A stretch of 32,000 nucleotides of DNA, taken from positions 13,773 through 45,772 of the forward strand of contig CAZNZM010000005.1 of NCBI GenBank assembly GCA_964577555.1, read 5' to 3'. The stretch is from an uncultured archaeon. Lineage in GTDB: Archaea; Iainarchaeota; Iainarchaeia; Iainarchaeales; Iainarchaeaceae. The notes beneath the pieces were generated by a model that was not told where the DNA came from, did no database searches, and was given only the letters and a program-made list of their open reading frames with translations. This document shows, in pieces, positions 473 to 30,638 of this stretch (position 1 is its first letter; each line of letters opens with the position of its first letter). The position numbers were made by a program, and so were the translations under genes.

Positions 473-880
473 TCATCTCCTCGTAAACATTCTTTGTGCA
501 TGGCTCCGCGCAGCATGTTCAGCCATTCTTTTTTGTATGTCAACACCGCTCGAAACAGGCGACTCCATGTCTTCTTCCGGTGCTTTTGGGGGCCCTCCGG
601 CGCTAATAAAGAAGAAATCCACGAGTATGCCGCTAACCCCAAACATCAAAAGCATGTATAAAATGTAAATTGGCCCAAAAATCGCCCAACCATCCAAAAA
701 TATGAAAAATGTCAAAGCCGCAATAAGCACCCAAGACATAGTCCCGCTTCCAATGTGGTTTCTTACCCAACTTACCAGCATAAGAAAAGCAAATATTTTG
801 ACTATCAAATTAAGGTCGTTAAACAACTCAAAAACGGAATCAATGAAAAGCATTGTATCAACTAACCCAAACCAATACAT
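473..880 (-). CDS. small polytopic membrane protein (135 aa) with a basic/charged C-terminal tail
   Basis: The ORF has 3-4 hydrophobic segments followed by a polar tail (GGPPKAPEEDMESPVSSGVDIQKRMAEHAARSHAQRMFTRR). The ATG at 880 overlaps the g1 stop by 19 nt and is preceded by G-rich GGGGGA (884..889) 4 nt upstream. An alternative ATG at 853 (MLFIDSVFELFNDL...) gives an N-terminus of similar length to the paralog at 1..99, so the start is uncertain by 9 codons. Confidence 0.65.
   Translation of the reverse strand: MYWFGLVDTMLFIDSVFELFNDLNLIVKIFAFLMLVSWVRNHIGSGTMSWVLIAALTFFIFLDGWAIFGPIYILYMLLMFGVSGILVDFFFISAGGPPKAPEEDMESPVSSGVDIQKRMAEHAARSHAQRMFTRR
477..481 (-). promoter_or_regulatory. Shine-Dalgarno-like AGGAG before the 154..471 gene
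   Basis: The minus strand reads cgAGGAGatgatATG, with 5-nt spacing. Confidence 0.5.
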
Positions 881-3800
881 GTTTCCCCCGCCTTTAATGA
901 ATTTGAAACTTCCGAAATATTTAATTTTGCTCCTTTTGAATCATAAACTGTTTTAGGATTCCAAAAAATTTCAGCCTTCCTGCCGGAATCGGAAATACAA
1001 GCATTGCCAGACTCTACCAATTTGAATACATCCAAAACAGTTGTTATTGCCCCCGTGCTTCCGCCAGAAGGATCATTATATTTTACCCCGGTTATTCCAG
1101 AAAGCCTTGCTTTTTCGCTTATTTCTTCAGGAGTCATTAAAATCGCTTTTCCTTTTGGATGCTCTAATTTAAGAGAATAAATTTCCAATGGATTAGTAAA
1201 GAATATTGTTCTTATATAAGAATCGCCTTTATAAACGATTGGCCCAAAGTCAACGCCGTAAGCACTCTCCCAATCATTAAGAGGGTCTTTTGTTGTGGCA
1301 GCCCTGTCCGAACGCGAATCAAAAGACTCTGTTATTAATGTTCCAGAAAAGTCAAGGCACGCTCCTACGCCATTCCAAAAAGTCAATGTTTCACCAACAT
1401 CGACAGGCACTTCATTGTTGGCAACAGTATAAAAAACAGACAAAGGCTCTTCAGAAATTGAATTTGCCGAAACCTTTATCATCACCGGCGTGGCTTTGGA
1501 AGGCGAAAAAACCAAGTTTGCTTCAGAAGGCGAAATTTTTTCCAAAATAAACAAATTGCCTCTTGTTGAAGGAGAAGAGTTTAATTTGTAAAAAGATTTT
1601 TCAAGTTTTGTGGCGGCAATTGAATTGGCATTGCTTCCATTGTCATTATAAGTTTTCATTGGTTGGCTGGAATTGTCAAACAATATTTGCCCTTCTTCGT
1701 TGAAAAAGCTTACCCCATAACCTTGCCTGTTGAAAGAATCATTTTCAAGTCCTACAAGGCCATCCAATGGCAAATAATAAAATGCAGAATTTGGTCTTGG
1801 TTCATGCAAAAGATAAAACTCTATTTCTATTTTCACATTAGGAGAACCATCCGCGTTAAAAAACCTGAAACTCTTGTCAATTCCTGAAATATTTATCAAC
1901 ACGTCATAAATTCCCGGGCTTGGCAATTCATGTGAATCAAAAAACCTGTTTCTGAAAGAAATATTGTGATTTATAAAAATATTCGCAATTCCATAAGGTT
2001 TGCCATCAGGAGAAGTGGCTTCCTTGTAAAACCACTCCGCAGTATCAAAAAACCTGCCGTTAGAATAATGTTCCGCAAAGTCGTTTATGAAATCCTCGCT
2101 AAAAGAATCCCTTATAAGCATTGCATTGAAATGAATAGTATTCATAAAAGATTCTTTGTTGGGAATCTCCTGTGTCCAAGAAATTGCGTTTTCATTTGCT
2201 TCTATTAAATGTTTGATTGCAGGCTCTCCTTCAATAAATCCTGTCCAATTCTCCAAATAGCAATTTTCTGTTTGTGAATTTCTGTCAACATTAAGGTCTC
2301 TCGCCAGTGTTTCAAATTCCTTGTTTAAAGGATTTGCAGGGCATTTGAGGTTTTGGTTTTGGTTGAAAAAATCTTTTAACGCCTTGAGCCTTTTTGAAAT
2401 CATAATACTAAATTGTGTTGCGTCACAATAAATGCCGTTCGGATTTTGTTCAAGACACGTGTCCTTATCAATATTTGTAAAACTCCAATCAAATCTAACT
2501 TTTGGCAAAGAGGCTTTTCCAGTTCTTCCGAATTTTACCCCGTTTTCGCATGAAAGAGTATCAAACGAAAGCTGTGGAATTGTTTCCTCTTCTTCCATTG
2601 TCTTGAACTTCAAATGAATTTTGGATTCCACATTGACTTTTTCTCTGTCGGGCACCTTAAAAGGCCCGAAATTGCTGTTTCCCCTTTCAATTTTTGTAGG
2701 CAAAGCATGTAAATGTTTGGTTGCATTGAAAGTGAAAGTAGCATAAGAAGGTTTTTGATTGGCAACGCCGTTGTTAATGAAAACCAAACCGACTTTTTGC
2801 TTATTATATTGTCCTATTATTTTTGCAGAATCCATGTTGTAATACGCAACCAAATCTTTGTTGTCAGAAACTATTGGCCCTGCATCAGAAACTAGGTTTA
2901 TAACATAATCAGGCAAACTTGAAGTATGCCTTTGGGTGCAAGGATCGTTTCCAAAAATTTTTCCATATATCCCTCCAATAAAAAAACCACCAAGAGAATA
3001 CATTGCCATGATGTTAGTTGGCGTAAAAAAACTCTTGGCTGTCGCGCTTGCAACCACGTTTCCTAAAGAATTGTTTGCAGACTGCACAATAGCATTCGTT
3101 GAAGCAAAACTTAATTTAAGAACCCCTGTTTTTGCAACAGATTCGCCAAATTGATTGGCAACAAAAGACTGCAAGGAAGAAGAACTTTCACCAACCAAAG
3201 AAACAGCTTCAGCTATCGCTGCTTTGCATTGACAAACTTCCGGATCGGCTTGGCACATACTAATAGCAATAGTTGCGGCGCTTCCCAAAGAAGTTGCACC
3301 AGCATTCAAATAAACCGATGCTTGTTGAATATAAGCCAATACTTCACTGTTAAGGTATTCTTTTTGAGCAAGTAATTCCGAAGCATCCAATTGTGTAAAT
3401 CTGCCGTTTATGAATTGCCCACCATTCATTGCCACATCCTGCAATTTTGAGTCATTCTCAATAATTTTACTCATAATATTTTTCGCATTTTCACACGCAG
3501 TTTTAGCAGATTGAACAGAAGCAATAGCCGAAGTTATATTAGCATTTGCAGGAGTTATACTGCATGGACCATAAGCACTTTGTGTGCTGGAAAGTGCAGA
3601 ATCAATTTTTGAACAAACAGCATCAATATTGTTATTGGATAAATTATCAGCAGCAACCGATGCTTGTTGTGCTGATTTTGTTGCATCCATTGATTGTCCA
3701 ATTCCTGAAGCAACCCCTTTTGCAGCAGCATTTGAAGCCATTAATGCAGGCCTTATTCCCATTAACGCGCCATATATTGCTCCAACACCAGCACCAGTCC

Positions 3801-6800
3801 AATCCCACCATCCTTTTTCAGTTGCGTCGCCCCAATCGCAAATGCTTGCATCCACAGTAATATTTTCGCTCAAAAACTTGTTAGTTAATTCAGTAGAATC
3901 CTTTGAACCGTTTCCAATAAGAGTGAAAGAATATTTGTTAAGCTCGAAAGCATCATTCATAGTGGGTTTTGCAATAACATCAAAAGTCAAAAGCTCTCTA
4001 TAATTAGTATTTTTAGTTTTAATAAAAACCTTGACCCCATAAATGCCAGGTATTTCCTGCCGTGATACCCTTACCGTTTTGGAACTATTCACAGGCTTCA
4101 AAGTGAATTTTTCCGGTTCAACAAGTATTCCGCCTTCAGATCCGCCAGAACAACCAGCATCATCTTTGCACATCCAAAAATCAATCTCCATATTTCCACA
4201 AGCCGAAGAATCAATCGTAATACCCGCTTCGTTTGAATTTTCAGGAATAACCAAAGGAGTTTCTGCTTGTGGCGTGAATTTGATGCAATCCCTCAAGTTA
4301 AGCGTGTCGATTTCAACTTTTATTTGATTGCTTGAACCAACACTTTCCTCGCCATAATCAGTAAATTGCGAAGCATCAATTGTTATGCTGAATTCCGCCT
4401 TTTTTCCCAAAGAATTGCCTTTTGGCGTAAAAATTATTTCAGCAATATATTCCCTTCCACCAGGGACCCTTTCAAAAAGCGTGCTAAAAATTCCATCCGC
4501 CAAAATATCTTTTCCTATTTGCCCTGTTATTGAATCAATTGCCTGAACTTCTACAAAGCCAAACTTGTTGCTTTTCCAATCAACCTTTGCCTTTAAATTT
4601 TTCAAATCGATAGGCTTGTTTTTTTTGTCAATACAATTGTTTTTAATATAGAATTCGGTTTTGGCTACGCCTGAAATTGTTGCATCTTTCCATTCCTTTA
4701 TTGAAACCTCAATACAATTTTGATTTGCCGGAGGCTCAGCCAAAGAAATTGCAGTAGAAAAAGGAATTTCAAAAGGCCAAGTATTTTTATTTTTGTCTGT
4801 AAATTCAAGATAGAGTCTTCCTGAAATGTTTTTCTTTTCTTTTATATATTTTCCGTCTTCGCTTATTGCTGCTATGAAATTCATTTCTTTTGACTCGTTG
4901 AATCCTACTTTTATACCGGAATTCATAGATGCATAATTTGTCATTTTTTGTTCATCCAGCAACCCTAAAAATTTTCCATAAAATCCTGCTTTTGAAAGTT
5001 CAAGTTCCAAAGGAGTCAAATTGGCAATTGAAACAGATTTTTTTTCCTCTCTTTTTGATGAAATATTCAAATTATAATTCAATTTTTCAGGAGAAAATTT
5101 CAATATTTCTTTAGTAACTTTTAATTGATATGATTTTCCTGAATAGCCTGGTTTTTCAACAACTACTTTGAATCTTGTGTTTGGCTCCAAAGCAGGGATT
5201 TTTATAAGTGCTTTTCCTTCCAAATCGGTAGTGCCGATAATCGTTGTTTTTTTTCTGTCAGGATGCACCAATTCAACTCTTACATTTGCGCCATCAACTC
5301 CAAAATAATCTTCTTCTTTATACTCTTTGGCTTCAACTTTTAGTTCAAATTCCGTAAAAGCAGGAATTATTTCAGGAACAATCGCAATATTCATGTCATT
5401 GCTTGCCACTATTTTAAAATCAATTTTTTTTTCAAACACTATATTTTTTTCAGAATGAATAATTATTGATAATCCAGATTCTGATAAATTAACCGGTTTT
5501 ATTTTCAACCTTCCTGTTATTGATTTGTTTTTATTTAATTTTCCTAAAATTATTCCTTCAATTTTGAAAGTTTCCCTGTTTGAACCGAATTTTTCCGAAT
5601 CCGCACTGAAAATGCTGTAATCAAGTATTTTTATATTTTCTTGGTTGGAATTTGAAATAATTAGTTTTGCATTGTCATATGTTGCTTCTTTGTTGTTCAA
5701 AATGGAAAATTCAATTTCATATTCCCCGAAATTTCTTAATGAATAAGGCTTTTCAAGGTATAATTCTTCCTTTAAATCAAGCACTTTTTCATTGAAACAA
5801 AAAAATTCGCCGCAGTCTGTTGAAGAATTATAAACATATGTTTTTGCATATAACCATTTTTTTGTTGCAGAATTTTCCGCAAAACCAAGTTCAGAGTCTT
5901 GCGGATCCCTGTATATTTCCCCATTGCTTTTTACTGCAAACGCCCTGTAATTAAAAAATAACTTGCTTTGTGCGTTTGCAAAATTTTTCAATTTGAATTT
6001 AACTCCGAAATTAATTATTTTTCCAGCGTTGTTTGATTTTTCCCAAGCGATTTGCACCCATTTTGCATTGCCGTTGGTTAGGTTGCTTAAATCTTCTTCC
6101 AAATTTCTTGGCGGATTATAAGTTGAACCCATCAAATAAGTTGCTTTTGGCGCATCAACTTCATATATATACATTGTATCTTTTTCAACATTATTCTCAT
6201 TTCCGACGTTAATAAAAGCCCCTGCCTGTTCATATTCAAAATCTTTCGGAATAACCAACAAAAACTTTGCTTCATATGATTTGCCAGGCTCCAATACCTC
6301 GGCTTTTTTTCCATCAGAACTTATTTCTACCAAACTTATTTTGATGTTTCCTGAAATAGATTCTTTTTCAAGTTTTGCCATGATTTTTGCCGCTTTTTCA
6401 GGCAATATTATTGAGGACGTGGAGTGGTATTCTGCATACCCTTCGGCTGTTACAACCACTGAAACCTTTTCTCCTGCCCTGATTTTTGCGCTTCCTTTTC
6501 CGCTGCTGTCCAAAACTATTTTTCCTATTCTTTTTTCATAATCAAAAATTTCTGCGTTGGCAAAAGGAACCGCTTTTCCATCCTCGTCCAAAGTTTCTAT
6601 TTCAATTGTGCCATATCCTATTTTCAATTGCAGAATAATTTCTTTGGTGGCGCCTTCGTTTATTTCAAATGCTTCAGAAAGCCCGTTTGCAGGATATTTT
6701 TGTGCAATAACTCTGTATTTTCCGTTTTTAATACCGGTAAATTTTGCAATTCCATTGTTATTGGTTGTTTTTGGCTGGTATTCATTCAAAGCAAAATTCG

Positions 6801-8040: not shown

Positions 8041-8069
8041 GGTTTCGTCTAAAAAGTAGTTTTAAGCAG

Positions 8070-8077
8070 TTAATAAA
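8070..8077 (-). promoter_or_regulatory. TATA-box-like element upstream of g1
   Basis: The minus strand reads TTTATTAA, centred about 33 nt upstream of the ATG at 8040. A second candidate, TTTATAAA, lies at 8120..8127. Confidence 0.3.
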
Positions 8078-8100
8078 GTTTTTCAGCAAAATTATTTTTT

Positions 8101-8155
8101 CCAAAAAATTTGTGTTTTTATAAACAATTTCTGTAGAGCACAGCAAAACCAAAAG
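8101..8155 (-). terminator. candidate oligo-T termination region downstream of g2
   Basis: Downstream of the g2 stop, the minus strand reads ccTTTTggTTTTgc (8143..8155) and aaaTTTTTTgg (8103..8108 as A6 on the plus strand). These lie upstream of the g1 TATA-like box. The tracts are short and weak. Confidence 0.25.
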
Positions 8156-8189
8156 GTTGTTGAAATGATTATATTTGTTCCGTTTTGGG

Positions 8190-15218: not shown

Positions 15219-15222
15219 TTTG

Positions 15223-15230
15223 TTATTAAA
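15223..15230 (-). promoter_or_regulatory. TATA-box-like element upstream of g2
   Basis: The minus strand reads TTTAATAA, centred about 26 nt upstream of the ATG at 15200, which is the start homologous to the g1 start. A second candidate, TTTAAATA, lies at 15259..15266. Confidence 0.3.
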
Positions 15231-15282
15231 TTATTTGTTCAACCAATTGTCGGTTGCATATTTAAAAAGTCCGGTTATTAAA

Positions 15283-15420
15283 GGATTTTTTTTGCAAGCC
15301 ATTTTTTTGGAAAATTTTGAAATTTTTTTTGTTGTTTGTTTTGCGAGCCGTTTTTGTCATTTTTTTTGAACTTATTTTTTTTGTCATGTTTTTTTTGAAG
15401 AACAATTTTTGAAATTGGTT
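15283..15420. repeat. array of oligo-T tracts (T5-T9 on the plus strand) separated by short GC-containing islands, in the g3-g2 intergenic region
   Basis: Read directly as ggaT8 gcaagcca T7 gg..T8 g..ttttgcgagccgttttt gtca T8 gaactta T8 gtcatg T8 gaag. It shares the exact 17-mer ttttgcgagccgttttt (15339..15355) and the following island order (T-run gaa(c/t)ttat T-run ... gaag) with 31791..31850. Confidence 0.8.
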
Positions 15421-15449
15421 TTATTTGTTTGCGAATAACTTTATAGTTT

Positions 15450-22556: not shown

Positions 22557-22560
22557 AAAA

Positions 22561-22565
22561 TCACC
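22561..22565 (-). promoter_or_regulatory. Shine-Dalgarno-like GGTGA before the g3 GTG start
   Basis: The minus strand reads ttGGTGAttttGTG. GGTGA matches the canonical SD core complementary to the 16S rRNA 3' end (general knowledge; the 16S sequence of this organism was not seen). Confidence 0.45.
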
Positions 22566-22600
22566 AATTAACTGAAACTGATATAATAATCATTTAATCT

Positions 22601-22631
22601 AATTATAAAAGTTTCTTTCACCTTTATAAAC
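22601..22631 (-). promoter_or_regulatory. candidate promoter region upstream of g3 (two TATA-like boxes)
   Basis: The minus strand reads TTTATAAA at 22623..22630 and TTTTATAA at 22603..22610. Either would give a 5' UTR of about 25-45 nt that includes the GGTGA motif. Confidence 0.3.
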
Positions 22632-22656
22632 TTTAATTTTTTTTGAATTTCACCTT

Positions 22657-23142
22657 TTAAAACGGCAATTCAACAATATAAGTATTTGCAGGCATCTGAA
22701 TCTTTATTGTTTCAATGATATAACCTGTTGCTAGTGAAAGCACCAAAACTATCAACACCAAAAAAAATATTTTCCATTTTTCTTCCCAAAAATTTTTTCT
22801 TCCAGCCATATCATCTTTTATTGCCAAACCTATTTCTATTCCTGAAGAATGCGCCACACCCAAAGGAAATATTGCAAGCAATATTAGCAACGGATTTGTA
22901 AACAAATAACCGCCAAAAATCAAGCCGATTACAAACATTACAACAAACGAAAATTTGGCATAATACAATATTGAAAGAGCCATCAAACCCAAACAAATAA
23001 ATGCGAGTTCAATTTGAATCGGAAAAGAAAATTTCAACAAAGGCTCTCCGTCTAAAAAAAAATTGGAAACAATATTTGAAGCAATAACTCCAATAACATA
23101 CAAGGCAAACCCAATCAACAAATTAATTCTATTGCCCAACAT
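22657..23142 (-). CDS. polytopic membrane protein (161 aa, about 5 hydrophobic helices), tightly coupled to g4
   Basis: The ATG at 23142 lies 2 nt after the g4 TAA stop (23145..23147). The product is dominated by hydrophobic helices, with one short polar loop (KDDMAGRKNFWEEKWK). I cannot assign a family from the sequence alone. Confidence 0.75.
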   Translation of the reverse strand: MLGNRINLLIGFALYVIGVIASNIVSNFFLDGEPLLKFSFPIQIELAFICLGLMALSILYYAKFSFVVMFVIGLIFGGYLFTNPLLILLAIFPLGVAHSSGIEIGLAIKDDMAGRKNFWEEKWKIFFLVLIVLVLSLATGYIIETIKIQMPANTYIVELPF

Positions 23143-23144
23143 AC

Positions 23145-26100
23145 TTATTCCATTTTTTTAGTAAAATATTCTGTATTCCATAAAAGTTCCATTTTTTGAT
23201 CCTCAACTTTAATGCAAACTTTCTCATCTTTAACCATGTTTAATAAATTTTGCAAATTATATTGTGTTCTTTTATAAGCTTTCATTTCGTCATTATTTAA
23301 CGAAACATCGCCGCGACCATCTGCTCTTCCGATTATATTATTTATTTTATTTATTTCTTTAGTTAGTATTGTACCTTCTTTAATGCATTTTACTGAAATA
23401 ACCGACCCAGTATCTTCTTGAACAACTTGTGCAGGCACATAAGCTAATGCTGAAAAAGTTTTGTTGAAAGGTTCGTTATCTGTGAACAATAACCCATAAT
23501 ATTTTTTATCATTAGTGCTCTCATCAGTATTACCTTTATCGCAAAGTTCATAACCATAAAATGGTCCATCTTTTGAATCAGCCAAATTTTTACTATTTTT
23601 TTCAATGTATTTTAGTTGGAAAGGCTCAGAGTTTCCATTATGCTTGAATTCATAGAAAACACCAGCAGGTTCTTCAGCTTGTTTAGTAATAGTCACTTCT
23701 ATCATTATAGGATTTGAAAGAGATGCACTAATAAGATCTTTTGAAATTGTCATTAATTTACCATTTTTTGTTGCTTCATAAGTTCTATTAATTGTTGTAC
23801 CTGCATTTCCACGTTGTTTGTAATTTTTGATTTGATAATTATCCTTGTCAAAGTTGTTTAAATAAATATTATTTACTCCATCACCGCTAAAAGAAGTTCC
23901 CCACTCAACTTTTCCATCAATTGGGATTTCAAACAAAACATTTTTTGAAAAACTCGTTTTATTGTCTTCATCTATTTTTTGCATTGTTCTGTCAATTTTC
24001 AGATAAACTTCAGCATTATAATCTGCTTTATTTTCCCATTTGTATTTTCCAATGCTTACGTTATAATCACCAGCATCCACATTTTTATCATTACTAGTGT
24101 TAAAAGTTAAATTGATTTCATAATATTGTTCTTTAAATTTTTCTTTAAATTCATTGTCATAGCTGTCCTTCATCAAGTACATTTTAGGTTCAATGTTTTC
24201 CTTGTAAAACTCAAAGAAATTTTTTATGCCATAATTACTGCTGACAATTCCTTTTTTCATCACCATTTCCTTGACTTTCTTGCTCATCTCTTTTTGATTG
24301 ATTGCAACTATTTTAAGCTTTCCATTATCAACTATGTTTTGTAATGCTTTTTTTAGATCGTCAATATTAATTTGATTATTATCACTAATACTAATGGTGT
24401 TGCAATTTTGAGTATTATTTTGAGTATTATTATTATTATTATTAATACAATTTACAATTTGTTCATGCGTTTTAATGTAACTTGTTAGCGGCGCATACCA
24501 AATTTTATTACTTCCCCCAATTGAAAAAGCGTTTTCGAATAAGTCGTTAAAATTAACACCGCTACTCAAATTTTTTACTTCCAAGTAAATTGCCAAACCA
24601 TTCATATCCTCATTTGAAATTTTAGTATTTGCTTCTTTAAGCACTTTTATTGTTTCATTCAAGATTGTTAGGTTATGTTGTTTATCAGTATTCGGTTTTT
24701 TTTGCAATAATTCTTCTAAACCTTCTTGCTTAAGCTTCATTATTTCAATCGCTTCGTCATTTTCATTCGTAAAAATTCCTTTTTCGTTTTGTTTCAGCAC
24801 ATACCTGAAAAGGTTTTCAGCTGTTTTATTAGCCGGATCTTCGCACTTGAAATTTGTTGCATTTTTTACACACTCACCAAATTTACTATCCGTTGTTGTT
24901 ATTTTTCCAGCAACTTCTTTGATTTTGTCAATCTTTTTTGTAATTGAAATAGTTGCTTGCACCGCGTCACAAAATATATTTCCTTTGCCAACGTCGCAAG
25001 TGTCTTCTTTGATTTCGTCTTTTCTCCAATCATACTTTATTTTTTCCAAACCGTATTTTTCAAATGCGGCTTCTCCTGTTTCTCCGCCGTTTTCACAAAT
25101 AGTAATCATGTATTCTTCCGGTGGTTTTCTGTCTTCTTTTTTATCATCAATTATTTCTTTTATATTGAATTTGACGTTGAGCCTTACAAGTTCTGATGAT
25201 GCTGTTATTGTTCTGCTTACTTTTGCAATTATGTCTTCATTTATTGTGGTTCCTGTTTTATTCCATTTTGAGGTGTCAAATGAAATTGCCAAATTGTGTT
25301 TTGGGTCTGTCGGGTCTGGCTGGATTTTCATTACAAGCCAGTTTTTTTGCCTGAAAACCATTTCTTGCGGGGAAAAATCGTGCAAGTAATCAGCCGTTCC
25401 GCACCCTTTTTCTTCGTCAATTATGAACAATCCTCCATTATCTTTTGTATAATATGTTCTATCTGTAGGCATGTTTCCTAGCCTTGTGAAATCAAGGGCT
25501 TGGTGGTTTATGCATTCGCTTGGCTTTTTTGCAGGACTTCCGAATGTTTCAAATTGTTCGTTAAGGCGTTCAGCGTACTCCAACGCGTTCCACAAATCCT
25601 GTACAATTATAGGGAATGCTATTTGTTGTTGCATTCCAAACGGATTTATGAATTTGACAATAAGGCTTGTTCTTGCTTGTATAGCATAATAACCAGAAGT
25701 CAAGAAATACCTCAAGTTTCCAATGTCTTTGAATATGTTTGGTCCGAACAATTCCGCTTTTGGCGCGTTGTTTCTGTATTTTTTGAGAGCCTTGACTATT
25801 TCAAAAGACAATACTTGGGTTACTTTGCCGTTTGGTTGTGTGAGGTATTCAGGGCCAAGGAATGTATAGCTTTCAATAAGTTCTCTTGCGCTTCCCGCGG
25901 ATTGATTGGCTGTCAAGTTGCTTTCATTCGCAACTCTGTATGGTTGTCCGTTTATCGGGTTATAATTCGGATATTGTCCAACTTGATAACCAAATCCAGT
26001 GTCTGCAGGATTGGCAATTGCCAAGCCAGGGAAAAATATTGTTGAAGTGCTTTCTTCAAGATAAACGCCTTCAGCATAGCAAGTATTTATCACTTTCAAT

Positions 26101-29100
26101 GTTACTGGCAAGCCAAAGTAATTGTTGAATGCAATTGTTCTGGCAGGATCAATTGATATGCAGTCCCTGTAATTTTTTGACCAAGGATTTGTCACATTGA
26201 CATACACCGTTTTTATTTTGTTTGTTTTTTGCGAACTGTTTGCCTGCCTTGCCTTGATGTCAAGCGCGTATCTACCAAAGAAATTTGAAGGCTCAACTAT
26301 TACATCTGATTCTTTGCCAGGTTCAATTGTAATCATCTTGTCTTTTACGGTTATGCCGGGCTGTGCATCAAAACTTATTTCTATTGGAGCTTGGCAACTG
26401 TTTCTTATTCTGAAGCCACCTGTTCCGCAACTCCAAGCCATCATAGCATTTGGCGAATAAGAAGCCATTCCAGAATAGAATGGCGCGCCAAAGTAAGAGT
26501 TAGGATAATATGCGTTGGAATAACCATACATTCCAAGGTCTCCATAAGTATTTGGTGTTGAAGGAGTTCCAAGATAGGGCGGTTGTCCGGTGCCATAGCC
26601 ATACCTTGAAGTCATTGGGTCAAAAGCACCATACCTTGAATTTGAATATTGCGAAAACCTGTTTCCGTAAAGCCCGAAACCAATGTTGTAAGGACAACTT
26701 TGAACTACAATATCCCTGTCCGTTAATGTTTCAATGCATTCGTTGATGTTATTAATGCTTATATTGACATTGATTTTTTGCAAAAGCTTTTGTTCGCCGG
26801 TTTGAGTAAAGTTTGATGCTTGCAATTCAATCCTTGCATTTGCCGTGCCACTAATTATATTGTCAGGCTTGAATTTGAAAGTAATTACTTGATCAGAGTC
26901 TTTTTCCAAAACATCAAAAACTTTTCTGAAAACCCCGTCTATTTTGCTTTCAAATCCATTATCAGTGCCGGCAGTGAACGAGCCAAAAATGTTTTGGTTG
27001 CCTGAAACAACTCTTGCAGAAATATTTCTAAGATTGACTTTTTTGCTTCCAGATTTGCAGTTATTAACCAAAGTCACTGCAAATTGGCTTGTTTCGCTTG
27101 GCGTTCCGCTTATTTTCCACTCTATTGGGTTTTTAAGGTTAGCGACAGGTGCAATCATAAAGCATCCTGTGTCATCCACTTCATCGCCAAACCCGATGTT
27201 GATTTCTATCGGAATTTGAGCAACCCATTTTTGTCCAAAAGCATCATTGCTTGCTGTAATGATTGCTGAACCAACTACTCTTGTAGGTTGTGTTATGTTA
27301 GAGCTTGTTGCAACAAGACTCAAGTTGCCAGACATTAGAATGTTGCTGTCTGGTTGAATTGATGCAGGCAAGTTTGGTTCAAACAATTTGATTTGAACAT
27401 AACCTTCAAGAGATTTGCTGAAATTTATTTTTTCAATTTGCAAAGGTATTTGAGTTATATTCAATATTTTTCCTTCAAAGTTTTTAGGTTCGGAATCGTC
27501 AATATTAATATTCAATTTGATTGTTTTTGGTTCTGTAACAATTATGTTCGACGAGGACTTCATTTCCAATTGTGCCTGCTTATAACCTGTCTTTTCCGCG
27601 CTTATAATTATGCTTGAACCCTCGGAAGGCGAAGACAAAGTATAAGAAAATACTCCTTCAAAATCAGTGTCTCCAGAAGCCACAACCTCATCATTTTTTC
27701 TTATGCTGACTTTTGCATTAGGAATTCCAGTGCCATCAGTATTACTGACTTTTACCAACAAATTATTGTTTATCAAAGGCACGATTATTTTTGGCAAAAC
27801 ATCGATATTCATTTGTCTTGCAGGCTGGACTTTTATAAAAATGGTTTTCTTGTATATTTCTGACGCATTGCTTCCCGAAACGCTTGATACTATCGACAAT
27901 TCAACAGGCAACGTTCCTTCCTTTTTAGTGGTGAATTCAATTGTTCCGAAAATGACAGAACCATAAGAAAGCTCTCCAACAGAAAGCTTCAATTCTGATC
28001 CATTAAGCCTGCCTTGTTTTTGTTCTCCAAGTGCAGTTTTTACATCATAAGAATTCATTACAAGCCCAGCTGTCTTGTCTTTCACAGAAATTTGAGTTGA
28101 ACCGAAAGGTGTTTTTGATATTGTTGAAATCTCAAAATTAAGTTTGTAACTGCTTTCAATTTGTGCATTATAAGACTCGGCAACATTTGAAGCAATTCCT
28201 TCCCTCAAATCTTCTATGGAATAAGAAGCGCAAAAATCTTCACTGCAAAGAGATGAAGGCCCTATTGAAAAAGACATTTTCAAAGAATTAGCATAAAGCC
28301 CTTGCTTTTGTGAGGTAGAACCGCTTGTGCCAAGCATTGAATCAACAGGCGCCCTTACAAACCCACTGCTTTTGCCTGCAGCCCTATACCATATTTCTCC
28401 AGAAGAACCAATTTTGGCTTCATCCCTTACTTGCACATCGGCTTCAATTTCATAAACCCCTCCTTTAATAGACTTGAATAAAGCGTTACCCCACTTTGCG
28501 TTTCCTGAAGTAAGATGCTGTAAATCAGTTGCTTGACCGACAGGCGGATTATAAGTAGTGCCTTTTAAAATTGAATTATACGCGCCTCTGATATCAGTTA
28601 TATATGCCACGTCTTTTTCCATTGAAGTGCTCGTATCCTTGCCAGTCCTAATATGCACTTCAACCTCGTCAAACACGGAATTTTTAGGCACAAAAAGCCT
28701 GAATTTGGCAGTATACTTTTGTCCAGGAGAAAGTGCTGAATCGCTTTCCGAAACTTTTTCATTTCCAGCATACAACCCATCAGGTTCTATGCCGAATGCA
28801 GAGACGCTTTTAAACAACACAACCCTTTTTTCAATTGAAACATCTTTTTGCATTTGAATCGGAATAGTCACATAATCCGAAAACCCAGAAGCTGAAACAG
28901 AGAGGAAAACTTTTTTATCAGCCCTCACAATTATTTCCTTCTTTCCATCAGAATCTGTTGTAGTTTCATCCAGAACTTCAAAACTGGATGCATCAACAGC
29001 CTTTACCATTGCACCTACAACAGGGCTTCCTTGTTCGTCAAAAACCCCAAAATTTATTTTGCCAGAACCAAGAGGAATTTTTATTTTCAAAATGTTTTGT

Positions 29101-30638
29101 TGCCTATTATTGACTCTTATAGTGTCACTGGTTTTTTCACCATAACCAGGCTTCACTGCATAAACATAATAATTTTCTTCTTCAACCCTTTCAAAAGTAG
29201 CCCTTCCATCAAGCCCTGTGACAAGTTCAGAGCCAACCTGCGCGCCATCAGAATTTTTTTTAAGCTTCAACCTGACATTCTCTATAGGCTTATCCTTTTC
29301 ATCAGTCACAACCACGAAAAGGCTTTGGCTGTTTTCAATAGTGGCTTGTTCAATTTGAACCGTGACAAAGTCGTTTGAAGGATTCATTTTCATTGAAGCA
29401 ATCAAATAACCAGCTTTATCAACATTAATATTATACTGCACATCCTCGCCAACACTGAACTCGACTTTTCCAGCTTCATCGGTTTGCTTTGAAGTAATCA
29501 CATTCTGTCCTTTTGAAAGACTTACAACCGCACCCTTAATTAATTCCCTTGTTTCCTTGTCCTGCACAACCAATTTTATTTTGCCGGCAACTGAATCATT
29601 CATTACCACTGCAATTGTCGTTGTAGAATTTGCCTTGACTTCTTGAACCACGTTTTGTTTCAAACCATCATACTCTCCATAATTGCCCTGCCTGTCAAAA
29701 GCAACAACATAATAATTCCCAACAGGCACATCACTGAAAGAAGCCGTGCCATTAGTGCTGGTTGACTTTTCCTCAATCAACGCTCCTTGAGTACCATTGC
29801 TTGCCCGAGAATAAAGCCTAACATCAATTCCAGCAATAGTTTCGCCTTTGTTGTTGGCAACAGTAACCAACACACTTCCCTTAGCCAAAGAACCTTTGCC
29901 TATCTCCATTTTCAAGTCATTATCAGATAAATAAATAGTTTCATTAGCAAGAACATAATCGCCCAAAACCTTTGCATTCAATTGCCCGCAATTATCAGGC
30001 ACATCAACTTCAACAATACCATTCCTTACAACTTCAGTAGAAGAAAAATCCTTATTCTCGACGCAAGAAAACTGCACTTGAACACTATCACCAAAAGCAC
30101 GCTGTGTCCCAGCCTCAAAAACACTAATAACCTTTGAAACAGTTTTTATTTCTCTTACAAGCTTAACCGAAACAGAACCTTTTTCATTCTCCAATTTTAT
30201 TGTTTCAGGCTTGTCAAGTTTATAACCCTGCTTTGACGCACTCACCTCAACATTCAAACCACGCGGCACAGAAAGCAAAACCACTCCCTTACTGTCAGTC
30301 TTTCCTGAAACTTCCTCACCATTAAATTTTCCAAAAACAACCGCGGCAGCAACAGGACTTCCTTGTTCATCAACAACACTAACACTCAATTCCCCATTGC
30401 CCGCAACAGCGCCAGAAACCAAAACAAAAAAACCAATCAGCAGCAAAGCCAAAAAAATCAAAAAAACAGGAAACGAAGGCACATTCTTTGATTCAATAAA
30501 ATCCACTACACTATAAACAGGCAAACCCTTTTCGTTCAACCAATCAAGAAAATCATAATACTTGTCTTCCAATTTCTCATAAAAACCCTTGTCAGAATCT
30601 GAAGGCGCCATCAAACCACTGCCAAATAACTTAATCAT
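23145..30638 (-). CDS. giant membrane-anchored surface protein, paralog g4 (2497 aa), the most divergent member
   Basis: This is a 7494-nt uninterrupted ORF with an ATG start and a TAA stop. It has a 55-aa conserved pre-TM segment (FYEKLEDKYYDFLDWLNEKGLPVY) followed by the helix FPVFLIFLALLLIGFFVLV. It carries beta-sandwich modules (for example LFVVVTDEKDKPIENVRLKL) and the blocks SGNAKWG, FCDAVQATI and CIKVEDQKMELLWNT. It lacks the central hydrophobic hairpin and instead has a Tyr/Gly-rich tract. The C-terminal third is Asn/Lys-rich. Confidence 0.95.
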   Translation of the reverse strand: MIKLFGSGLMAPSDSDKGFYEKLEDKYYDFLDWLNEKGLPVYSVVDFIESKNVPSFPVFLIFLALLLIGFFVLVSGAVAGNGELSVSVVDEQGSPVAAAVVFGKFNGEEVSGKTDSKGVVLLSVPRGLNVEVSASKQGYKLDKPETIKLENEKGSVSVKLVREIKTVSKVISVFEAGTQRAFGDSVQVQFSCVENKDFSSTEVVRNGIVEVDVPDNCGQLNAKVLGDYVLANETIYLSDNDLKMEIGKGSLAKGSVLVTVANNKGETIAGIDVRLYSRASNGTQGALIEEKSTSTNGTASFSDVPVGNYYVVAFDRQGNYGEYDGLKQNVVQEVKANSTTTIAVVMNDSVAGKIKLVVQDKETRELIKGAVVSLSKGQNVITSKQTDEAGKVEFSVGEDVQYNINVDKAGYLIASMKMNPSNDFVTVQIEQATIENSQSLFVVVTDEKDKPIENVRLKLKKNSDGAQVGSELVTGLDGRATFERVEEENYYVYAVKPGYGEKTSDTIRVNNRQQNILKIKIPLGSGKINFGVFDEQGSPVVGAMVKAVDASSFEVLDETTTDSDGKKEIIVRADKKVFLSVSASGFSDYVTIPIQMQKDVSIEKRVVLFKSVSAFGIEPDGLYAGNEKVSESDSALSPGQKYTAKFRLFVPKNSVFDEVEVHIRTGKDTSTSMEKDVAYITDIRGAYNSILKGTTYNPPVGQATDLQHLTSGNAKWGNALFKSIKGGVYEIEADVQVRDEAKIGSSGEIWYRAAGKSSGFVRAPVDSMLGTSGSTSQKQGLYANSLKMSFSIGPSSLCSEDFCASYSIEDLREGIASNVAESYNAQIESSYKLNFEISTISKTPFGSTQISVKDKTAGLVMNSYDVKTALGEQKQGRLNGSELKLSVGELSYGSVIFGTIEFTTKKEGTLPVELSIVSSVSGSNASEIYKKTIFIKVQPARQMNIDVLPKIIVPLINNNLLVKVSNTDGTGIPNAKVSIRKNDEVVASGDTDFEGVFSYTLSSPSEGSSIIISAEKTGYKQAQLEMKSSSNIIVTEPKTIKLNINIDDSEPKNFEGKILNITQIPLQIEKINFSKSLEGYVQIKLFEPNLPASIQPDSNILMSGNLSLVATSSNITQPTRVVGSAIITASNDAFGQKWVAQIPIEINIGFGDEVDDTGCFMIAPVANLKNPIEWKISGTPSETSQFAVTLVNNCKSGSKKVNLRNISARVVSGNQNIFGSFTAGTDNGFESKIDGVFRKVFDVLEKDSDQVITFKFKPDNIISGTANARIELQASNFTQTGEQKLLQKINVNISINNINECIETLTDRDIVVQSCPYNIGFGLYGNRFSQYSNSRYGAFDPMTSRYGYGTGQPPYLGTPSTPNTYGDLGMYGYSNAYYPNSYFGAPFYSGMASYSPNAMMAWSCGTGGFRIRNSCQAPIEISFDAQPGITVKDKMITIEPGKESDVIVEPSNFFGRYALDIKARQANSSQKTNKIKTVYVNVTNPWSKNYRDCISIDPARTIAFNNYFGLPVTLKVINTCYAEGVYLEESTSTIFFPGLAIANPADTGFGYQVGQYPNYNPINGQPYRVANESNLTANQSAGSARELIESYTFLGPEYLTQPNGKVTQVLSFEIVKALKKYRNNAPKAELFGPNIFKDIGNLRYFLTSGYYAIQARTSLIVKFINPFGMQQQIAFPIIVQDLWNALEYAERLNEQFETFGSPAKKPSECINHQALDFTRLGNMPTDRTYYTKDNGGLFIIDEEKGCGTADYLHDFSPQEMVFRQKNWLVMKIQPDPTDPKHNLAISFDTSKWNKTGTTINEDIIAKVSRTITASSELVRLNVKFNIKEIIDDKKEDRKPPEEYMITICENGGETGEAAFEKYGLEKIKYDWRKDEIKEDTCDVGKGNIFCDAVQATISITKKIDKIKEVAGKITTTDSKFGECVKNATNFKCEDPANKTAENLFRYVLKQNEKGIFTNENDEAIEIMKLKQEGLEELLQKKPNTDKQHNLTILNETIKVLKEANTKISNEDMNGLAIYLEVKNLSSGVNFNDLFENAFSIGGSNKIWYAPLTSYIKTHEQIVNCINNNNNNTQNNTQNCNTISISDNNQINIDDLKKALQNIVDNGKLKIVAINQKEMSKKVKEMVMKKGIVSSNYGIKNFFEFYKENIEPKMYLMKDSYDNEFKEKFKEQYYEINLTFNTSNDKNVDAGDYNVSIGKYKWENKADYNAEVYLKIDRTMQKIDEDNKTSFSKNVLFEIPIDGKVEWGTSFSGDGVNNIYLNNFDKDNYQIKNYKQRGNAGTTINRTYEATKNGKLMTISKDLISASLSNPIMIEVTITKQAEEPAGVFYEFKHNGNSEPFQLKYIEKNSKNLADSKDGPFYGYELCDKGNTDESTNDKKYYGLLFTDNEPFNKTFSALAYVPAQVVQEDTGSVISVKCIKEGTILTKEINKINNIIGRADGRGDVSLNNDEMKAYKRTQYNLQNLLNMVKDEKVCIKVEDQKMELLWNTEYFTKKME

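What the first reader, a model, noticed from the sequence alone, without database searches (positions are those of the whole stretch)
862..30638. Head-to-tail array of four collinear giant paralogs (2342-2497 aa each) filling about 90% of 32 kb
All four minus-strand ORFs show the same order of landmarks along their whole length:
- an N-terminal signal-anchor helix;
- a module with a conserved Cys pair (g1 LSCS...PPGCG, g2 LSCT...PENCG, g3 FKCS...PNNCG, g4 FSCV...PDNCG);
- several beta-sandwich modules with the V-K-V-(I/V)-D-x(4)-P-(V/I)-x-N-A-x-V signature typical of carboxypeptidase-regulatory-like / Ig-like folds;
- a (G/D)(N/D)AKW(V/G) block;
- a C-x(30-34)-C-x(8-9)-CDAxQ block;
- SPFYY(L/I)P-x-(D/N)GLVG in g1-g3;
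- a C-terminal C-x(10)-(F/W/L)-W-N-(P/T) block.

I see no catalytic motif (no HExxH, no GDSGG-type motif). There is no C-terminal sorting signal, so the proteins appear to be anchored at the N-terminus. The window contains no secretion, glycosylation or mobile-element gene.

Four tandem 7-kb paralogs with their own small membrane partners look like a self-contained cell-surface module. It could be an envelope or S-layer-like lattice, or a host-attachment apparatus of a small-genome episymbiont. Beyond the beta-sandwich repeats I cannot place the family, so most of each protein may be uncharacterised.
Basis: partly seen in the sequence, partly recalled or inferred. Interest (0 to 1): 0.85.

Follow-up and report, generated by a model that had tools for sequence, protein, structure and literature searches.

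The report
Conserved giant surface-protein operon of Iainarchaeota
Four neighbouring genes for 2,300-2,500-residue membrane-anchored proteins, plus small membrane-protein genes, form a gene cluster kept in fixed order across a phylum of tiny-genome archaea (Diapherotrites/Iainarchaeota); it probably builds a major cell-surface structure, and about three quarters of each protein, including a confidently modelled 600-residue end module, matches nothing known.

Summary
Four collinear minus-strand paralogs of 2,342-2,497 aa fill 90.0% of the window.

The source is a DPANN archaeon (Candidatus Diapherotrites/Iainarchaeum). The array is not a local oddity. An exhaustive profile search with the C-terminal ~600-aa module finds 826 clusters of mostly 2,200-3,200-aa proteins. 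In 76 related loci the order is conserved: g4-type, g3-type, one or two g2/g1-type giants, then two small paralogous membrane proteins (s2, s1). The s2/s1 pair follows the last giant in 53 loci.

Known domains (transthyretin-like, Ig-like and macroglobulin-like sandwiches) cover only about the first 560 aa plus one unit near aa 950. The C-terminal module gives a confident model (pLDDT 87, pTM 0.83) with no significant match among solved or viral structures. A hypervariable hinge of 134-1,126 aa carries LysM, fn3 or Cys-rich inserts in other members.

Best reading: an N-terminally anchored stalk-and-head surface assembly, either a coat or an attachment apparatus, built from non-redundant paralogs with small membrane partners. 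The function has not been tested. The cluster is not self-contained, because it continues past the left edge of the window.

The parts
862..8040 (-). g1, giant paralog (2392 aa); g1-type, the last giant of the array
   Evidence: ORF. Paralogy. The giant next to s2/s1 is g1- or g2-type in 52 of 52 loci.
8190..15218 (-). g2, giant paralog (2342 aa); closest to g1 (33% identity)
   Evidence: Its ortholog L2c in L002 is 35% identical over the full length.
15450..22556 (-). g3, giant paralog (2368 aa, GTG start)
   Evidence: Identical to database protein P0001. Orthologs are 39-61% identical.
23145..30638 (-). g4, giant paralog (2497 aa), first gene of the array, with the most diverged C-terminus
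   Evidence: Ortholog L2a in L002 is 35% identical. Weak end-to-end match to the C-module profile (46 bits).
22657..23142 (-). s3, 161-aa polytopic membrane protein, starting 2 nt after the g4 stop codon
   Evidence: Hydrophobic segments. Homolog at the same position in L002 (E 3e-9). A 155-aa membrane protein with 3 strongly hydrophobic segments sits at the same position in L005, with no detectable sequence similarity. No Pfam family.
473..880 (-). s2, 135-aa membrane protein with about 3 hydrophobic segments and a basic C-terminal tail; its start overlaps the g1 stop by 19 nt
   Evidence: Homolog follows the last giant in 53 of 76 loci. No Pfam or PDB sequence match.
154..471 (-). s1, ~105-aa polytopic membrane protein with several hydrophobic segments, a paralog of s2 (shared R/K-x-x-[LIV]-G motif); probable start at Met58 of ORF 154-642
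   Evidence: s1 vs s2 E 4e-5. The 113-aa L002 ortholog is 55% identical and starts at the equivalent Met. The s2-to-s1 gap is -16 to +85 nt in 49 of 52 loci. Alignment A5.
1..99 (-). s0, start of a third small membrane gene, cut off by the window edge
   Evidence: The translation MLTLLASLFDNIRIVVIFFIFIWLVGWAKENIG resembles the ~86-aa family found after s1 in 41 loci. The resemblance was judged by eye and not scored.
865..2658 (-). C-terminal module of g1 (aa 1795-2392), without the Ig insert
   Evidence: AlphaFold2 model with pLDDT 87.3 and pTM 0.83. No Foldseek match with E <= 1e-3 in the PDB or BFVD libraries. No Pfam or PDB sequence match to the module profile.
8193..10331 (-). C-terminal module of g2 (aa 1630-2342)
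   Evidence: Profile match at 749 bits. Member of alignments A1 and A2.
15453..17489 (-). C-terminal module of g3 (aa 1690-2368), with an inserted CARDB-like Ig sandwich
   Evidence: Model with pLDDT 73.5. Only the inserted sandwich matches solved folds (3idu CARDB, E 8e-5).
23157..25130 (-). Diverged C-terminal module of g4 (aa ~1837-2494)
   Evidence: 46-bit match spanning profile positions 27-646. It keeps the C...C...CDAVQ and C-x10-LWNT blocks.
2659..3852 (-). Hinge of g1 (aa ~1397-1794): Ala/Ser-rich insert flanked by Gly-rich hydrophobic segments
10338..10928 (-). Hinge of g2 (aa ~1431-1627), containing a strongly hydrophobic stretch (peak at aa 1477-1495)
   Evidence: Kyte-Doolittle score 3.15..
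17490..18281 (-). Hinge of g3 (aa ~1426-1689): low-complexity insert between LAYGAISAGLVMLT and SPLAAGLLGGFVGTLISY
   Evidence: This is the least conserved and most gapped region among g3 orthologs.
7933..7989 (-). N-terminal membrane anchor of g1 (aa 18-36)
   Evidence: 124 of 128 full-length family members have such a helix.
15063..15119 (-). N-terminal membrane anchor of g2 (aa 34-52)
22368..22424 (-). N-terminal membrane anchor of g3 (aa 45-63), preceded by the motif YYDFLD...IPVYEIIDPID
30417..30473 (-). N-terminal membrane anchor of g4 (aa 56-74), preceded by the same motif

Best explanation
The window holds most of a conserved gene cluster of Diapherotrites/Iainarchaeota (DPANN archaea). 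The cluster encodes a multi-component cell-surface assembly.

**Architecture of each giant (shown)**
1. A short N-terminal segment and one membrane helix.
2. About 500 aa of transthyretin-like, Ig-like and macroglobulin-like sandwiches.
3. About 900 aa of unassigned sequence punctuated by conserved Cys pairs.
4. A hypervariable hinge.
5. A conserved C-terminal module of about 600 aa with no recognisable fold.

**How it is proposed to work (inferred)**
- The helix anchors the protein in the archaeon's own membrane.
- The sandwich domains form a long extracellular stalk.
- The C-terminal module is a distal head.
- The hinge is a display site for lineage-specific binding domains.
- The three anciently diverged types (g4, g3, g2/g1) are non-redundant subunits that work together.
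- The small polytopic membrane proteins (s3, then s2, s1 and s0) form the membrane-embedded base or insertion platform.

Whether the assembly is mainly a coat (a canopy-like envelope) or an attachment apparatus for hosts or surfaces is not resolved. I favour a structural-adhesive surface layer.
For: **Architecture**
- An N-terminal hydrophobic helix is present in all four giants and in 124 of 128 full-length relatives.
- Sandwich domains of the types found in surface proteins are confirmed (CarboxypepD_reg E 1e-20 to 1e-36, plus Big_1, SpaA, bMG3 and MG4).
- Cysteines fall in conserved pairs along the whole length.
- Relatives carry LysM, fn3, Y_Y_Y or Cys-rich repeats, which are extracellular domain types.
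- No catalytic motif was found, and there is no phage or defence family hit.

**Conservation**
- The C-module profile finds 826 clusters, 525 of them at E <= 1e-30, nearly all with the module at the extreme C-terminus of a 2,200-3,200-aa protein.
- There are 190 confirmed sites in species-representative genomes, nearly all titled Iainarchaeum, Diapherotrites or archaeon. They include the complete AR10 genome and Ca. Iainarchaeum andersonii.
- Tandem giants occur in 49 of 76 loci, and s1/s2 follows the last giant in 53 of 76.
- The order g4 to g3 to g2/g1 to s2 to s1 is fixed, and the giant beside s2/s1 is never g3- or g4-type.
- Each window paralog has its own ortholog in L002 at 35-39% identity.
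- Identity among g3 orthologs is fairly even along the whole length (0.36-0.56 per 100-aa block). It is lowest in the hinge, at 0.30-0.36.

**Gene coupling**
- s3, s2 and s1 start within a few nucleotides of the preceding stop codon.
- Each giant has its own AT-rich spacer with TATA-like elements.
Against: - No expression, localisation or binding data exist.
- The charge distribution around the anchor helix does not settle its orientation.
- The stalk and the 900-aa middle region were not modelled. Their beta-sandwich nature beyond the Pfam hits is inferred.
- Heteromeric assembly is inferred only from conserved co-occurrence and order, which in small syntenic genomes could partly reflect inheritance.
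- Strongly hydrophobic internal segments (g2 aa 1477-1495, and 50 of 128 relatives) do not fit a simple stalk-and-head picture.
- s3 is detectable by sequence in only one other locus.
- N-glycosylation sequons occur at about 1 per 100 aa. By my own estimate from the proteins' composition this is roughly what chance gives, so there is no sign of the heavy glycosylation typical of many S-layer proteins.
Confidence: 0.55

Rival explanations
1. It is the S-layer or main envelope lattice of Iainarchaeota. The giants would be the lattice-forming and stalk subunits of a canopy-like coat held at a distance from the membrane, analogous to tetrabrachion of Staphylothermus.
For: - The cluster is conserved across the phylum in fixed order.
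- Purifying conservation extends along the whole length.
- The proteins are membrane-anchored with no catalytic motifs.
- A fixed set of non-redundant paralogs fits a defined architecture better than it fits a variable adhesin repertoire.
Against: - No Pfam or NCBIfam S-layer family matches.
- There is no C-terminal anchor or PGF-CTERM-type signal.
- At about 260 kDa each, the proteins are above the 40-200 kDa range quoted for S-layer proteins (10.1101/2021.04.28.441871).
- The S-layer protein reported for Micrarchaeota, another DPANN lineage in which a member of this family is annotated (P0154), is an unrelated 101-kDa protein.
- Sequons occur at about 1 per 100 aa, roughly the chance level by my own estimate.
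- Abundance is unknown.
Confidence: 0.25
2. They are host- or substrate-attachment adhesins, with the C-terminal module or the hinge inserts as the ligand-binding end. The paralogs would recognise different ligands rather than assemble together.
For: - The stalk is built from domain types used by bacterial fibrillar adhesins (SpaA, SdrD_B, Big_1).
- Hinge inserts such as LysM and fn3 are binding domains.
- The hinge is hypervariable, at 134-1,126 aa.
- Giant surface proteins in other DPANN archaea are proposed to mediate host contact (SPEARE, PMC6642349).
Against: - A strictly conserved paralog order and number across the phylum is unusual for adhesin repertoires, which normally vary between strains.
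- The putative head module is conserved rather than variable.
- No Iainarchaeota host is known from the literature I searched.
- No ligand has been tested.
Confidence: 0.3
3. It is a contact-dependent membrane-penetrating or fusion device. The Gly-rich hydrophobic segments flanking a coiled-coil-prone hinge would insert into a partner's membrane, giving the archaeon access to another cell's contents.
For: - 124 of 128 relatives have at least one Gly-rich, moderately hydrophobic segment just before the C-module, and 99 have two or more. 50 have at least one strongly hydrophobic one.
- Several g3 orthologs have Gln/Lys/Glu-rich, coiled-coil-like hinge inserts.
- The giants are anchored at the opposite end, in the archaeon's own membrane.
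Against: - This reading is purely sequence-pattern based.
- No fold resembles viral fusion proteins (BFVD and PDB searches), although only the C-module was modelled.
- Hinge composition is very inconsistent between members.
- g4 has no such segments.
Confidence: 0.07
4. It is an alpha-2-macroglobulin-like protease trap anchored on the cell surface.
For: - Macroglobulin-domain hits occur in g3 and g4. In g4, bMG3 scores 45.6 bits and MG4 32.5 bits, both above the Pfam whole-protein cut-offs. In g3, MG4 is at the cut-off and bMG3 is below it.
- The N-terminal membrane anchoring resembles the anchoring of bacterial alpha-2-macroglobulins (my own knowledge).
Against: - No thioester motif is conserved. 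CxEQ appears only as CLEQ in g1 and CDEQ in g3, at non-equivalent and non-conserved positions.
- Pfam finds no thioester domain, A2M, receptor-binding or CUB family.
- Foldseek with the C-module finds no complement or A2M core, apart from generic matches to the Ig insert.
Confidence: 0.03

Closest known systems
Fibrillar surface proteins and adhesins built from CarboxypepD_reg (transthyretin-like), Big_1, SpaA/SdrD_B and macroglobulin-type sandwiches
   Same: The N-terminal ~560 aa, plus one unit near aa 950, match these Pfam families. The proteins are long, repeat-rich, membrane-tethered and lack catalytic motifs.
   Different: - The anchor is an N-terminal membrane helix, not an LPXTG or other C-terminal sorting signal.
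- These domains cover only about a quarter of the length.
- The ~900-aa middle region, the hinge and the ~600-aa C-terminal module match no family.
- The genes occur as a fixed set of ancient paralogs with dedicated small membrane proteins.
SPEARE giant proteins of Nanohaloarchaeota (PMC6642349)
   Same: Both are very large, mostly extracytoplasmic, membrane-anchored proteins of a DPANN lineage. Both come in several copies that take up several percent of a ~1 Mb genome. SPEARE proteins are proposed to mediate cell-cell interaction.
   Different: SPEARE proteins are defined by serine-protease, laminin-G/adhesion and intracellular restriction-endonuclease domains, and most have a C-terminal anchor. 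None of those domains is found here, and the anchor is N-terminal. No sequence relationship was detected.
Archaeal S-layer proteins, including the Micrarchaeota SLP_Mh and stalked canopies such as tetrabrachion
   Same: A membrane-tethered, non-enzymatic surface protein set conserved across a lineage. A stalk-plus-head organisation could give a canopy.
   Different: No S-layer family matches. The size is about 260 kDa, compared with the 40-200 kDa range quoted and the 101 kDa of SLP_Mh. Three to four different giant subunits are involved instead of one or two. The comparison with tetrabrachion rests on my own knowledge and was not tested.
Bacterial alpha-2-macroglobulins
   Same: N-terminal membrane tethering and a run of macroglobulin-like sandwiches.
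   Different: There is no thioester motif, thioester domain, bait region, CUB or receptor-binding domain.
CARDB domain (PF1109 of Pyrococcus furiosus, PDB 3idu)
   Same: The sandwich inserted in the g3 C-module (model residues ~127-233) matches this fold (Foldseek E 8e-5, TM-score on the target 0.69).
   Different: It is an optional insert. It is absent from g1 and from 34 of the 181 family sequences surveyed. It is not the conserved core of the module.

Membership tests
CarboxypepD_reg / Big_1 / SpaA-type beta-sandwich repeat surface proteins | Significant matches to the sandwich-domain families | tested here: met
   PF13620 scores 74-126 bits against a cut-off of 32.3 in all four giants. Big_1 and SpaA are above cut-off in g3 and g4.
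CarboxypepD_reg / Big_1 / SpaA-type beta-sandwich repeat surface proteins | Repeats make up most of the protein | tested here: not met
   Hits are confined to about aa 50-560 and aa 940-1020. Profiles of aa ~570-1440 and of the C-module find nothing else.
Alpha-2-macroglobulin / thioester-containing proteins | Macroglobulin (MG) domains | tested here: inconclusive
   bMG3 and MG4 pass the whole-protein cut-offs in g4. In g3, MG4 is at its cut-off and bMG3 is below. They are absent or weak in g1 and g2, and they overlap the CarboxypepD_reg hits.
Alpha-2-macroglobulin / thioester-containing proteins | Conserved CxEQ thioester motif within a thioester domain | tested here: not met
   CxEQ is found only in g1 (CLEQ, aa 1862) and g3 (CDEQ, aa 794), at non-equivalent and non-conserved positions. 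No TED or A2M Pfam family matches.
Archaeal S-layer proteins | Match to a described S-layer family or domain | tested here: not met
   No such Pfam or NCBIfam match for the giants.
Archaeal S-layer proteins | Forms a 2-D lattice and is among the most abundant proteins | not testable with these tools
   This needs cryo-ET and proteomics of an Iainarchaeota culture or enrichment.
SPEARE proteins (Nanohaloarchaeota) | Serine protease, laminin-G/adhesion and restriction-endonuclease domains | tested here: not met
   None of these domains appears in the Pfam or NCBIfam scans. The definition is taken from PMC6642349.
Gram-positive thioester-domain (TED) adhesins | TED fold with a Cys-Gln thioester pair | tested here: not met
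   The invariant YCDAxQF block prompted this idea. However, the confident C-module model has no Foldseek match with E <= 1e-3 to any solved structure, and Pfam finds no TED family.
The unnamed Iainarchaeota giant-protein family defined here | C-terminal ~600-aa module with the invariant C...C...YCDAxQF, DFxxDF, FYY, GYG, PSxATP and WN blocks | tested here: met
   g1, g2 and g3 match the profile at 468-969 bits and g4 at 46 bits. Invariant columns are listed.
The unnamed Iainarchaeota giant-protein family defined here | Tandem array ending in the s2-s1 membrane-protein pair | tested here: met
   In the window, g1 is followed by s2 (473-880) and s1 (154-471). The same arrangement is found in 53 of 76 related loci.

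The most novel reading that the evidence does not exclude
The cluster encodes a previously undescribed kind of archaeal surface machine, specific to Diapherotrites/Iainarchaeota and relatives. It would be a heteromeric assembly of three to four ~260-kDa paralogs, built on a base of small polytopic membrane proteins and topped by a head domain with a new fold. This machine would be either the phylum's actual cell envelope or its apparatus for contacting other cells, rather than one more adhesin family.
Probability: 0.3. Interest if true: 0.85.

Novelty: new variant of a known kind. Interest (0 to 1): 0.62.

Why it matters
How DPANN archaea build their surfaces and contact other cells is largely unknown, and no Iainarchaeota culture turned up in the literature I searched.

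This cluster takes up about 30 kb. Diapherotrites genomes are about 1.05-1.24 Mb, so the cluster is roughly 2.5-3% of the coding capacity. It has been kept in fixed order across the phylum, which implies an important function.

The work gives four concrete handles:
- a family profile;
- a conserved operon layout;
- a confidently modelled C-terminal module with no match among the structures I could search;
- a hypervariable insertion site that carries recognisable binding domains in some members.

With these, metaproteomic, structural and binding experiments can be aimed at a defined target. If the assembly is the envelope or the host-contact device, it would be a new architectural type. If it is simply a large adhesin set, it is still a sizeable uncharacterised family, with 826 clusters at 50% identity.

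Tried and rejected
**Sequence and family searches that found nothing**
- PDB sequence searches found nothing significant with g1 or with profiles of the C-module, the two middle regions and s1/s2.
- Pfam and NCBIfam on isolated pieces found nothing beyond the sandwich domains.
- PHROGs and PADLOC gave no hit, so phage and defence readings were dropped.

**Fold searches**
- Only Foldseek against the PDB and BFVD could be run. "No similar fold" therefore holds within Foldseek's sensitivity only.

**Ideas tested and rejected**
- Thioester protein idea, from the CDAxQ block and the macroglobulin hits. Rejected because CxEQ is not conserved and there is no thioester domain.
- Internal transmembrane hairpin with a cytoplasmic loop. 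Considered because g2 has a strongly hydrophobic internal stretch. Weakened because only 50 of 128 relatives have a strong segment and because hinge inserts include LysM and fn3. It remains unresolved.
- Identity with the Micrarchaeota S-layer protein. Rejected because that is a different 101-kDa protein.

**Low-yield steps**
- The second word-indexed homolog search, using the module profile, returned only 7 proteins. The exhaustive search was the informative one.
- The sigma-70 promoter and terminator scan is not appropriate for archaea and found nothing.
- My first regex for the sandwich signature was too strict. The signature is nevertheless visible in the alignment and confirmed by Pfam.
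- Literature searches found no description of this family.

Full report
**1. Checking the observation**

The window contains four long minus-strand ORFs at exactly the reported coordinates:
- g1: 862-8040, 2392 aa
- g2: 8190-15218, 2342 aa
- g3: 15450-22556, 2368 aa, GTG start
- g4: 23145-30638, 2497 aa

Together they cover 28,809 nt, or 90.0% of the window.

All-vs-all BLASTP shows collinear similarity over the first 1,200-1,500 residues of every pair, at 24-33% identity with E-values from 5e-60 to 0. A second collinear block covers the last 450-790 residues of g1, g2 and g3.
- the Cys-pair module, the AKW block, C-x(30-34)-C-x(8-9)-CDAxQ and C-x10-[FWL]WN[PT] in all four proteins;
- the FYY...GLVG block in g1-g3, where g1 reads SAFYY rather than SPFYY.

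There is no HExxH or GDSGG motif. Every protein has one strongly hydrophobic N-terminal helix and no C-terminal one. The same array is present on NCBI, JGI and Logan assemblies.

**2. Source organism and family size**

A word-indexed search with g3 returned 22 relatives. All are unnamed or labelled as MAGs of "archaeon" or Candidatus Diapherotrites.

I then built a profile of the C-terminal ~660 residues from g1-g3 and nine relatives (alignment A1) and searched it exhaustively against 1.84 billion cluster representatives. It found 826 proteins at E <= 1e-3 and 525 at E <= 1e-30. Nearly all are 2,200-3,200 aa long with the module at the extreme C-terminus. Names available for some of them are "hypothetical", "carboxypeptidase regulatory-like" or "LysM", from Ca. 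Diapherotrites, Ca. Iainarchaeum, Ca. Micrarchaeota or "archaeon".

A scan of one genome per GTDB species found 190 confirmed sites. Almost all record titles read Ca. Iainarchaeum, Diapherotrites or archaeon. They include the complete genome of archaeon GW2011_AR10 and the Ca. Iainarchaeum andersonii single-cell genome. Three bins carrying bacterial or thaumarchaeal labels are probably mis-binned.

The window's own proteins are annotated "hypothetical protein". One copy is labelled "protocatechuate 3,4-dioxygenase beta subunit", a name that none of my domain searches supports.

**3. Known and unknown parts of the proteins**

Pfam assigns only sandwich domains:
- CarboxypepD_reg (E 1e-20 to 1e-36);
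- Big_1, SpaA, SdrD_B and an Ig-like family;
- the macroglobulin domains bMG3 and MG4.

These hits lie within roughly aa 50-560, plus one unit near aa 940-1020. NCBIfam adds nothing above threshold.

The rest finds no relatives:
- Profiles of the two middle regions (g3 aa 612-1032 with the AKW block, and aa 1031-1425) find no solved relative and no further Pfam family.
- The C-terminal module has no Pfam match and no PDB sequence match.

So about three quarters of each protein is unassigned.

**4. The C-terminal module**

An AlphaFold2 model of the g3 module was of moderate quality (pLDDT 73.5, pTM 0.58). Foldseek against the PDB matched only a ~110-residue sandwich inserted in it (CARDB domain 3idu, E 8e-5; also GH3 and complement sandwich domains), with TM-scores on the query of at most 0.14.

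That insert is optional. g1 lacks it, as do 34 of the 181 family sequences surveyed. I therefore modelled the g1 module (598 aa) with a 21-sequence alignment (A2). The model is confident (pLDDT 87.3, pTM 0.83, with 389 residues at pLDDT >= 90). Its layout is:
- a Cys-rich N-terminal part leading into a long helix that begins at the invariant YCDAxQF block;
- a mixed alpha/beta region;
- a large beta-rich C-terminal part.

The invariant residues are mostly Cys, Gly, aromatic residues, Asp, Arg, Asn and Gln. No His or Ser is invariant, so nothing suggests a hydrolase-type active site built on those residues.

**5. The hinge**

Between the middle region and the C-module lies a segment whose length ranges from 134 to 1,126 aa (median 366) in 123 full-length relatives. 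It is the least conserved and most gapped part among g3 orthologs.

It is flanked by Gly-rich, moderately hydrophobic stretches, for example LAYGAISAGLVMLT and SPLAAGLLGGFVGTLISY in g3. Of 128 relatives, 124 have at least one such stretch, 99 have two or more, and 50 have at least one stretch hydrophobic enough to look transmembrane. In g2 the hinge contains a very hydrophobic stretch with its peak at aa 1477-1495.

Inserts in other members include:
- Gln/Lys/Glu-rich coiled-coil-like sequence and Cys-rich segments;
- a LysM domain in P0099;
- fn3 and Y_Y_Y domains in P0044.

LysM and fn3 are extracellular domain types. This argues that the hinge lies outside the cell and is not a cytoplasmic loop between two membrane passes. 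What the hydrophobic flanks do is unexplained.

**6. Gene neighbourhood and its conservation**

In the window:
- s3 (161 aa, polytopic) starts 2 nt after the g4 stop codon.
- s2 (135 aa) overlaps the g1 stop codon by 19 nt.
- s1 most likely starts at Met58 of ORF 154-642, 2 nt after the s2 stop.
- Each giant is preceded by a 100-231-nt AT-rich spacer with TATA-like elements.

The left edge of the window cuts a third small membrane gene, which starts near position 99.

In a Diapherotrites genome with only 35-39% identical orthologs (L002), the order is: g4-like, s3-like, g3-like, g2-like, a 59-aa N-terminal remnant of a g1-like gene next to an inserted TnpB, s2-like, s1-like. Each paralog therefore has its own ortholog, which means the duplications are ancient.

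Across 76 related loci, each holding at most about 22 kb:
- 49 have two or three C-modules in tandem on one strand.
- 53 have an s1/s2 homolog downstream of the last giant.
- Adjacent pairs are g3 to g2 (19), g2 to g1 (13), g3 to g1 (10), g2 to g2 (10) and g4 to g3 (3).
- The giant beside s2/s1 is g1-type in 28 loci and g2-type in 24, and never g3- or g4-type.

Many genomes, AR10 among them, seem to have a single g2/g1-type gene. This fits with g1 and g2 being the most similar pair (33% identity).

s1 and s2 are paralogs sharing an R/K-x-x-[LIV]-G motif. They are more conserved than the giants (45-55% identity in L002) and match no Pfam or PDB family.

Downstream of s1, other loci carry an s0-like gene (41 loci), further small membrane genes (43 and 25 loci) and a ~500-aa protein (32 loci). 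That protein has only a borderline similarity to HerA (E 0.004) and usually lacks a Walker A motif. Whether these genes belong to the system is open.

**7. Interpretation**

Shown:
- the domain layout;
- the N-terminal anchor helix;
- the paired cysteines;
- the absence of the catalytic motifs searched for;
- the family size and taxonomic range;
- the conserved order and the s2/s1 linkage;
- the confident but unmatched model of the C-module;
- the hypervariable hinge with binding-domain inserts.

Inferred:
- Extracellular location of everything after the anchor helix. This rests on the domain types, the Cys pairs, and the LysM and fn3 inserts. The charge distribution around the helix is uninformative.
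- A stalk-and-head geometry.
- Cooperation of the paralogs in one assembly. This rests on the phylum-wide retention of three diverged types in fixed order, and on the fairly even conservation along their length.
- A base or insertion role for the small membrane proteins. This rests on translational coupling and conserved adjacency.

I commit to a membrane-anchored, multi-subunit surface structure with a structural-adhesive role (confidence 0.55). The rivals are:
- a true S-layer or canopy (0.25);
- independent adhesins (0.30);
- a membrane-penetrating contact device (0.07);
- an alpha-2-macroglobulin-like trap (0.03).

The first two overlap with the main statement and differ from it mainly in emphasis. 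The last is essentially refuted by the missing thioester motif and domains.

**8. Comparison with what is known**

- Sandwich-repeat surface proteins: the N-terminal quarter belongs with them. The proteins as a whole do not, because the repeats cover too little of the length.
- SPEARE proteins: the defining protease, laminin-G and restriction-endonuclease domains are absent.
- Described S-layer families: no match. The S-layer protein reported for Micrarchaeota is unrelated.
- Phage or defence families: no match.
- Literature: my searches found no description of this family or operon.

I rate it a new variant of a known kind, namely giant surface proteins of small-genome archaea. There is about a 0.3 chance that it is a truly new type of envelope or cell-contact machine.

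**9.

The DPANN origin, the largely uncharacterised sequence, the real small-membrane-protein partners and a surface role all hold up. However, the module is not self-contained within the window, the giants do not each have their own small partner, and the ancestral set is three types rather than four.

Noticed in passing
window 1-99 (-): Start of a third small membrane gene, cut by the window edge (MLTLLASLFDNIRIVVIFFIFIWLVGWAKENIG...). It resembles the ~86-aa family that follows s1 in 41 related loci, so the conserved cluster runs past the window. The resemblance was judged by eye.
   Followed up: partly
L021 14512-16002, L009 14382-15884 and 30 other loci (outside the window): A conserved ~500-aa protein lies 2-3 kb downstream of s1 on the same strand in 32 loci. 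It has no Pfam or NCBIfam family, only a borderline HerA match (PDB 4d2i, E 0.004), and most copies lack a Walker A motif. Between it and s1 lie two to three more small membrane ORFs.
   Followed up: partly
window 26439-26684 (g4 aa ~1319-1400): A Tyr/Gly/Ser/Pro-rich low-complexity insert of about 80 aa (…YGNRFSQYSNSRYGAFDP…YGYSNAYYPNSYFGAPFYSG…) is found only in g4.
   Followed up: no
window 15219-15449 (g3-g2 spacer): The spacer is an unusually A-rich stretch on the gene strand, with reiterated units such as caaaaaaaatgacaaaaa and caaaaaaatggcttgcaaaaaaaa. Its function is unknown.
   Followed up: no
window 30866-31570 (+): A divergently oriented 234-aa ORF with a signal-peptide-like N-terminus (MKNIFRLFQVLLLLVLLESSIG). 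It is called as a gene in the JGI record and has no family above threshold.
   Followed up: partly
g3 aa 18-44 and g4 aa 27-55 (window ~22425-22505 and ~30474-30560): A conserved acidic and aromatic motif, YYxFLD...(I)PVYx(I/V)(I/V)D, lies upstream of the anchor helix. It is found in 57 of 128 full-length relatives and is absent from g1 and g2. It could be a targeting or interaction signal.
   Followed up: partly
L002 24663-26212: In a related genome the g1-type gene is reduced to a 59-aa N-terminal remnant next to a TnpB/IS605 OrfB gene, while the downstream s2 and s1 genes are intact.
   Followed up: partly
L002 26-1294; L005 1-313: Upstream of the g4-type gene in L002 lies a 422-aa protein with a class III (type IV pilin-like) signal sequence (…RGFTLFTALVAFILIV…). 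Its C-terminus weakly resembles the protein in the same position in L005 (E 0.001). No counterpart was seen in the window.
   Followed up: no
L023, L024, L025: Contigs carrying the array sit in bins labelled Chloroflexi, Woesebacteria and Thaumarchaeota. These are most likely mis-binned Iainarchaeota contigs.
   Followed up: no
window 15450-22556 (g3), JGI annotation: One public copy of g3 is annotated 'protocatechuate 3,4-dioxygenase beta subunit'. None of my domain searches supports that name, so it is probably a mis-annotation.
   Followed up: partly
window 2453-2464 (g1 aa 1860-1863): g1 has CLEQ, the same four residues as a macroglobulin-type thioester motif (CxEQ). The aligned positions in g2-g4 read CDAD, CNEN and CDVG, so this is a chance occurrence.
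   Followed up: yes
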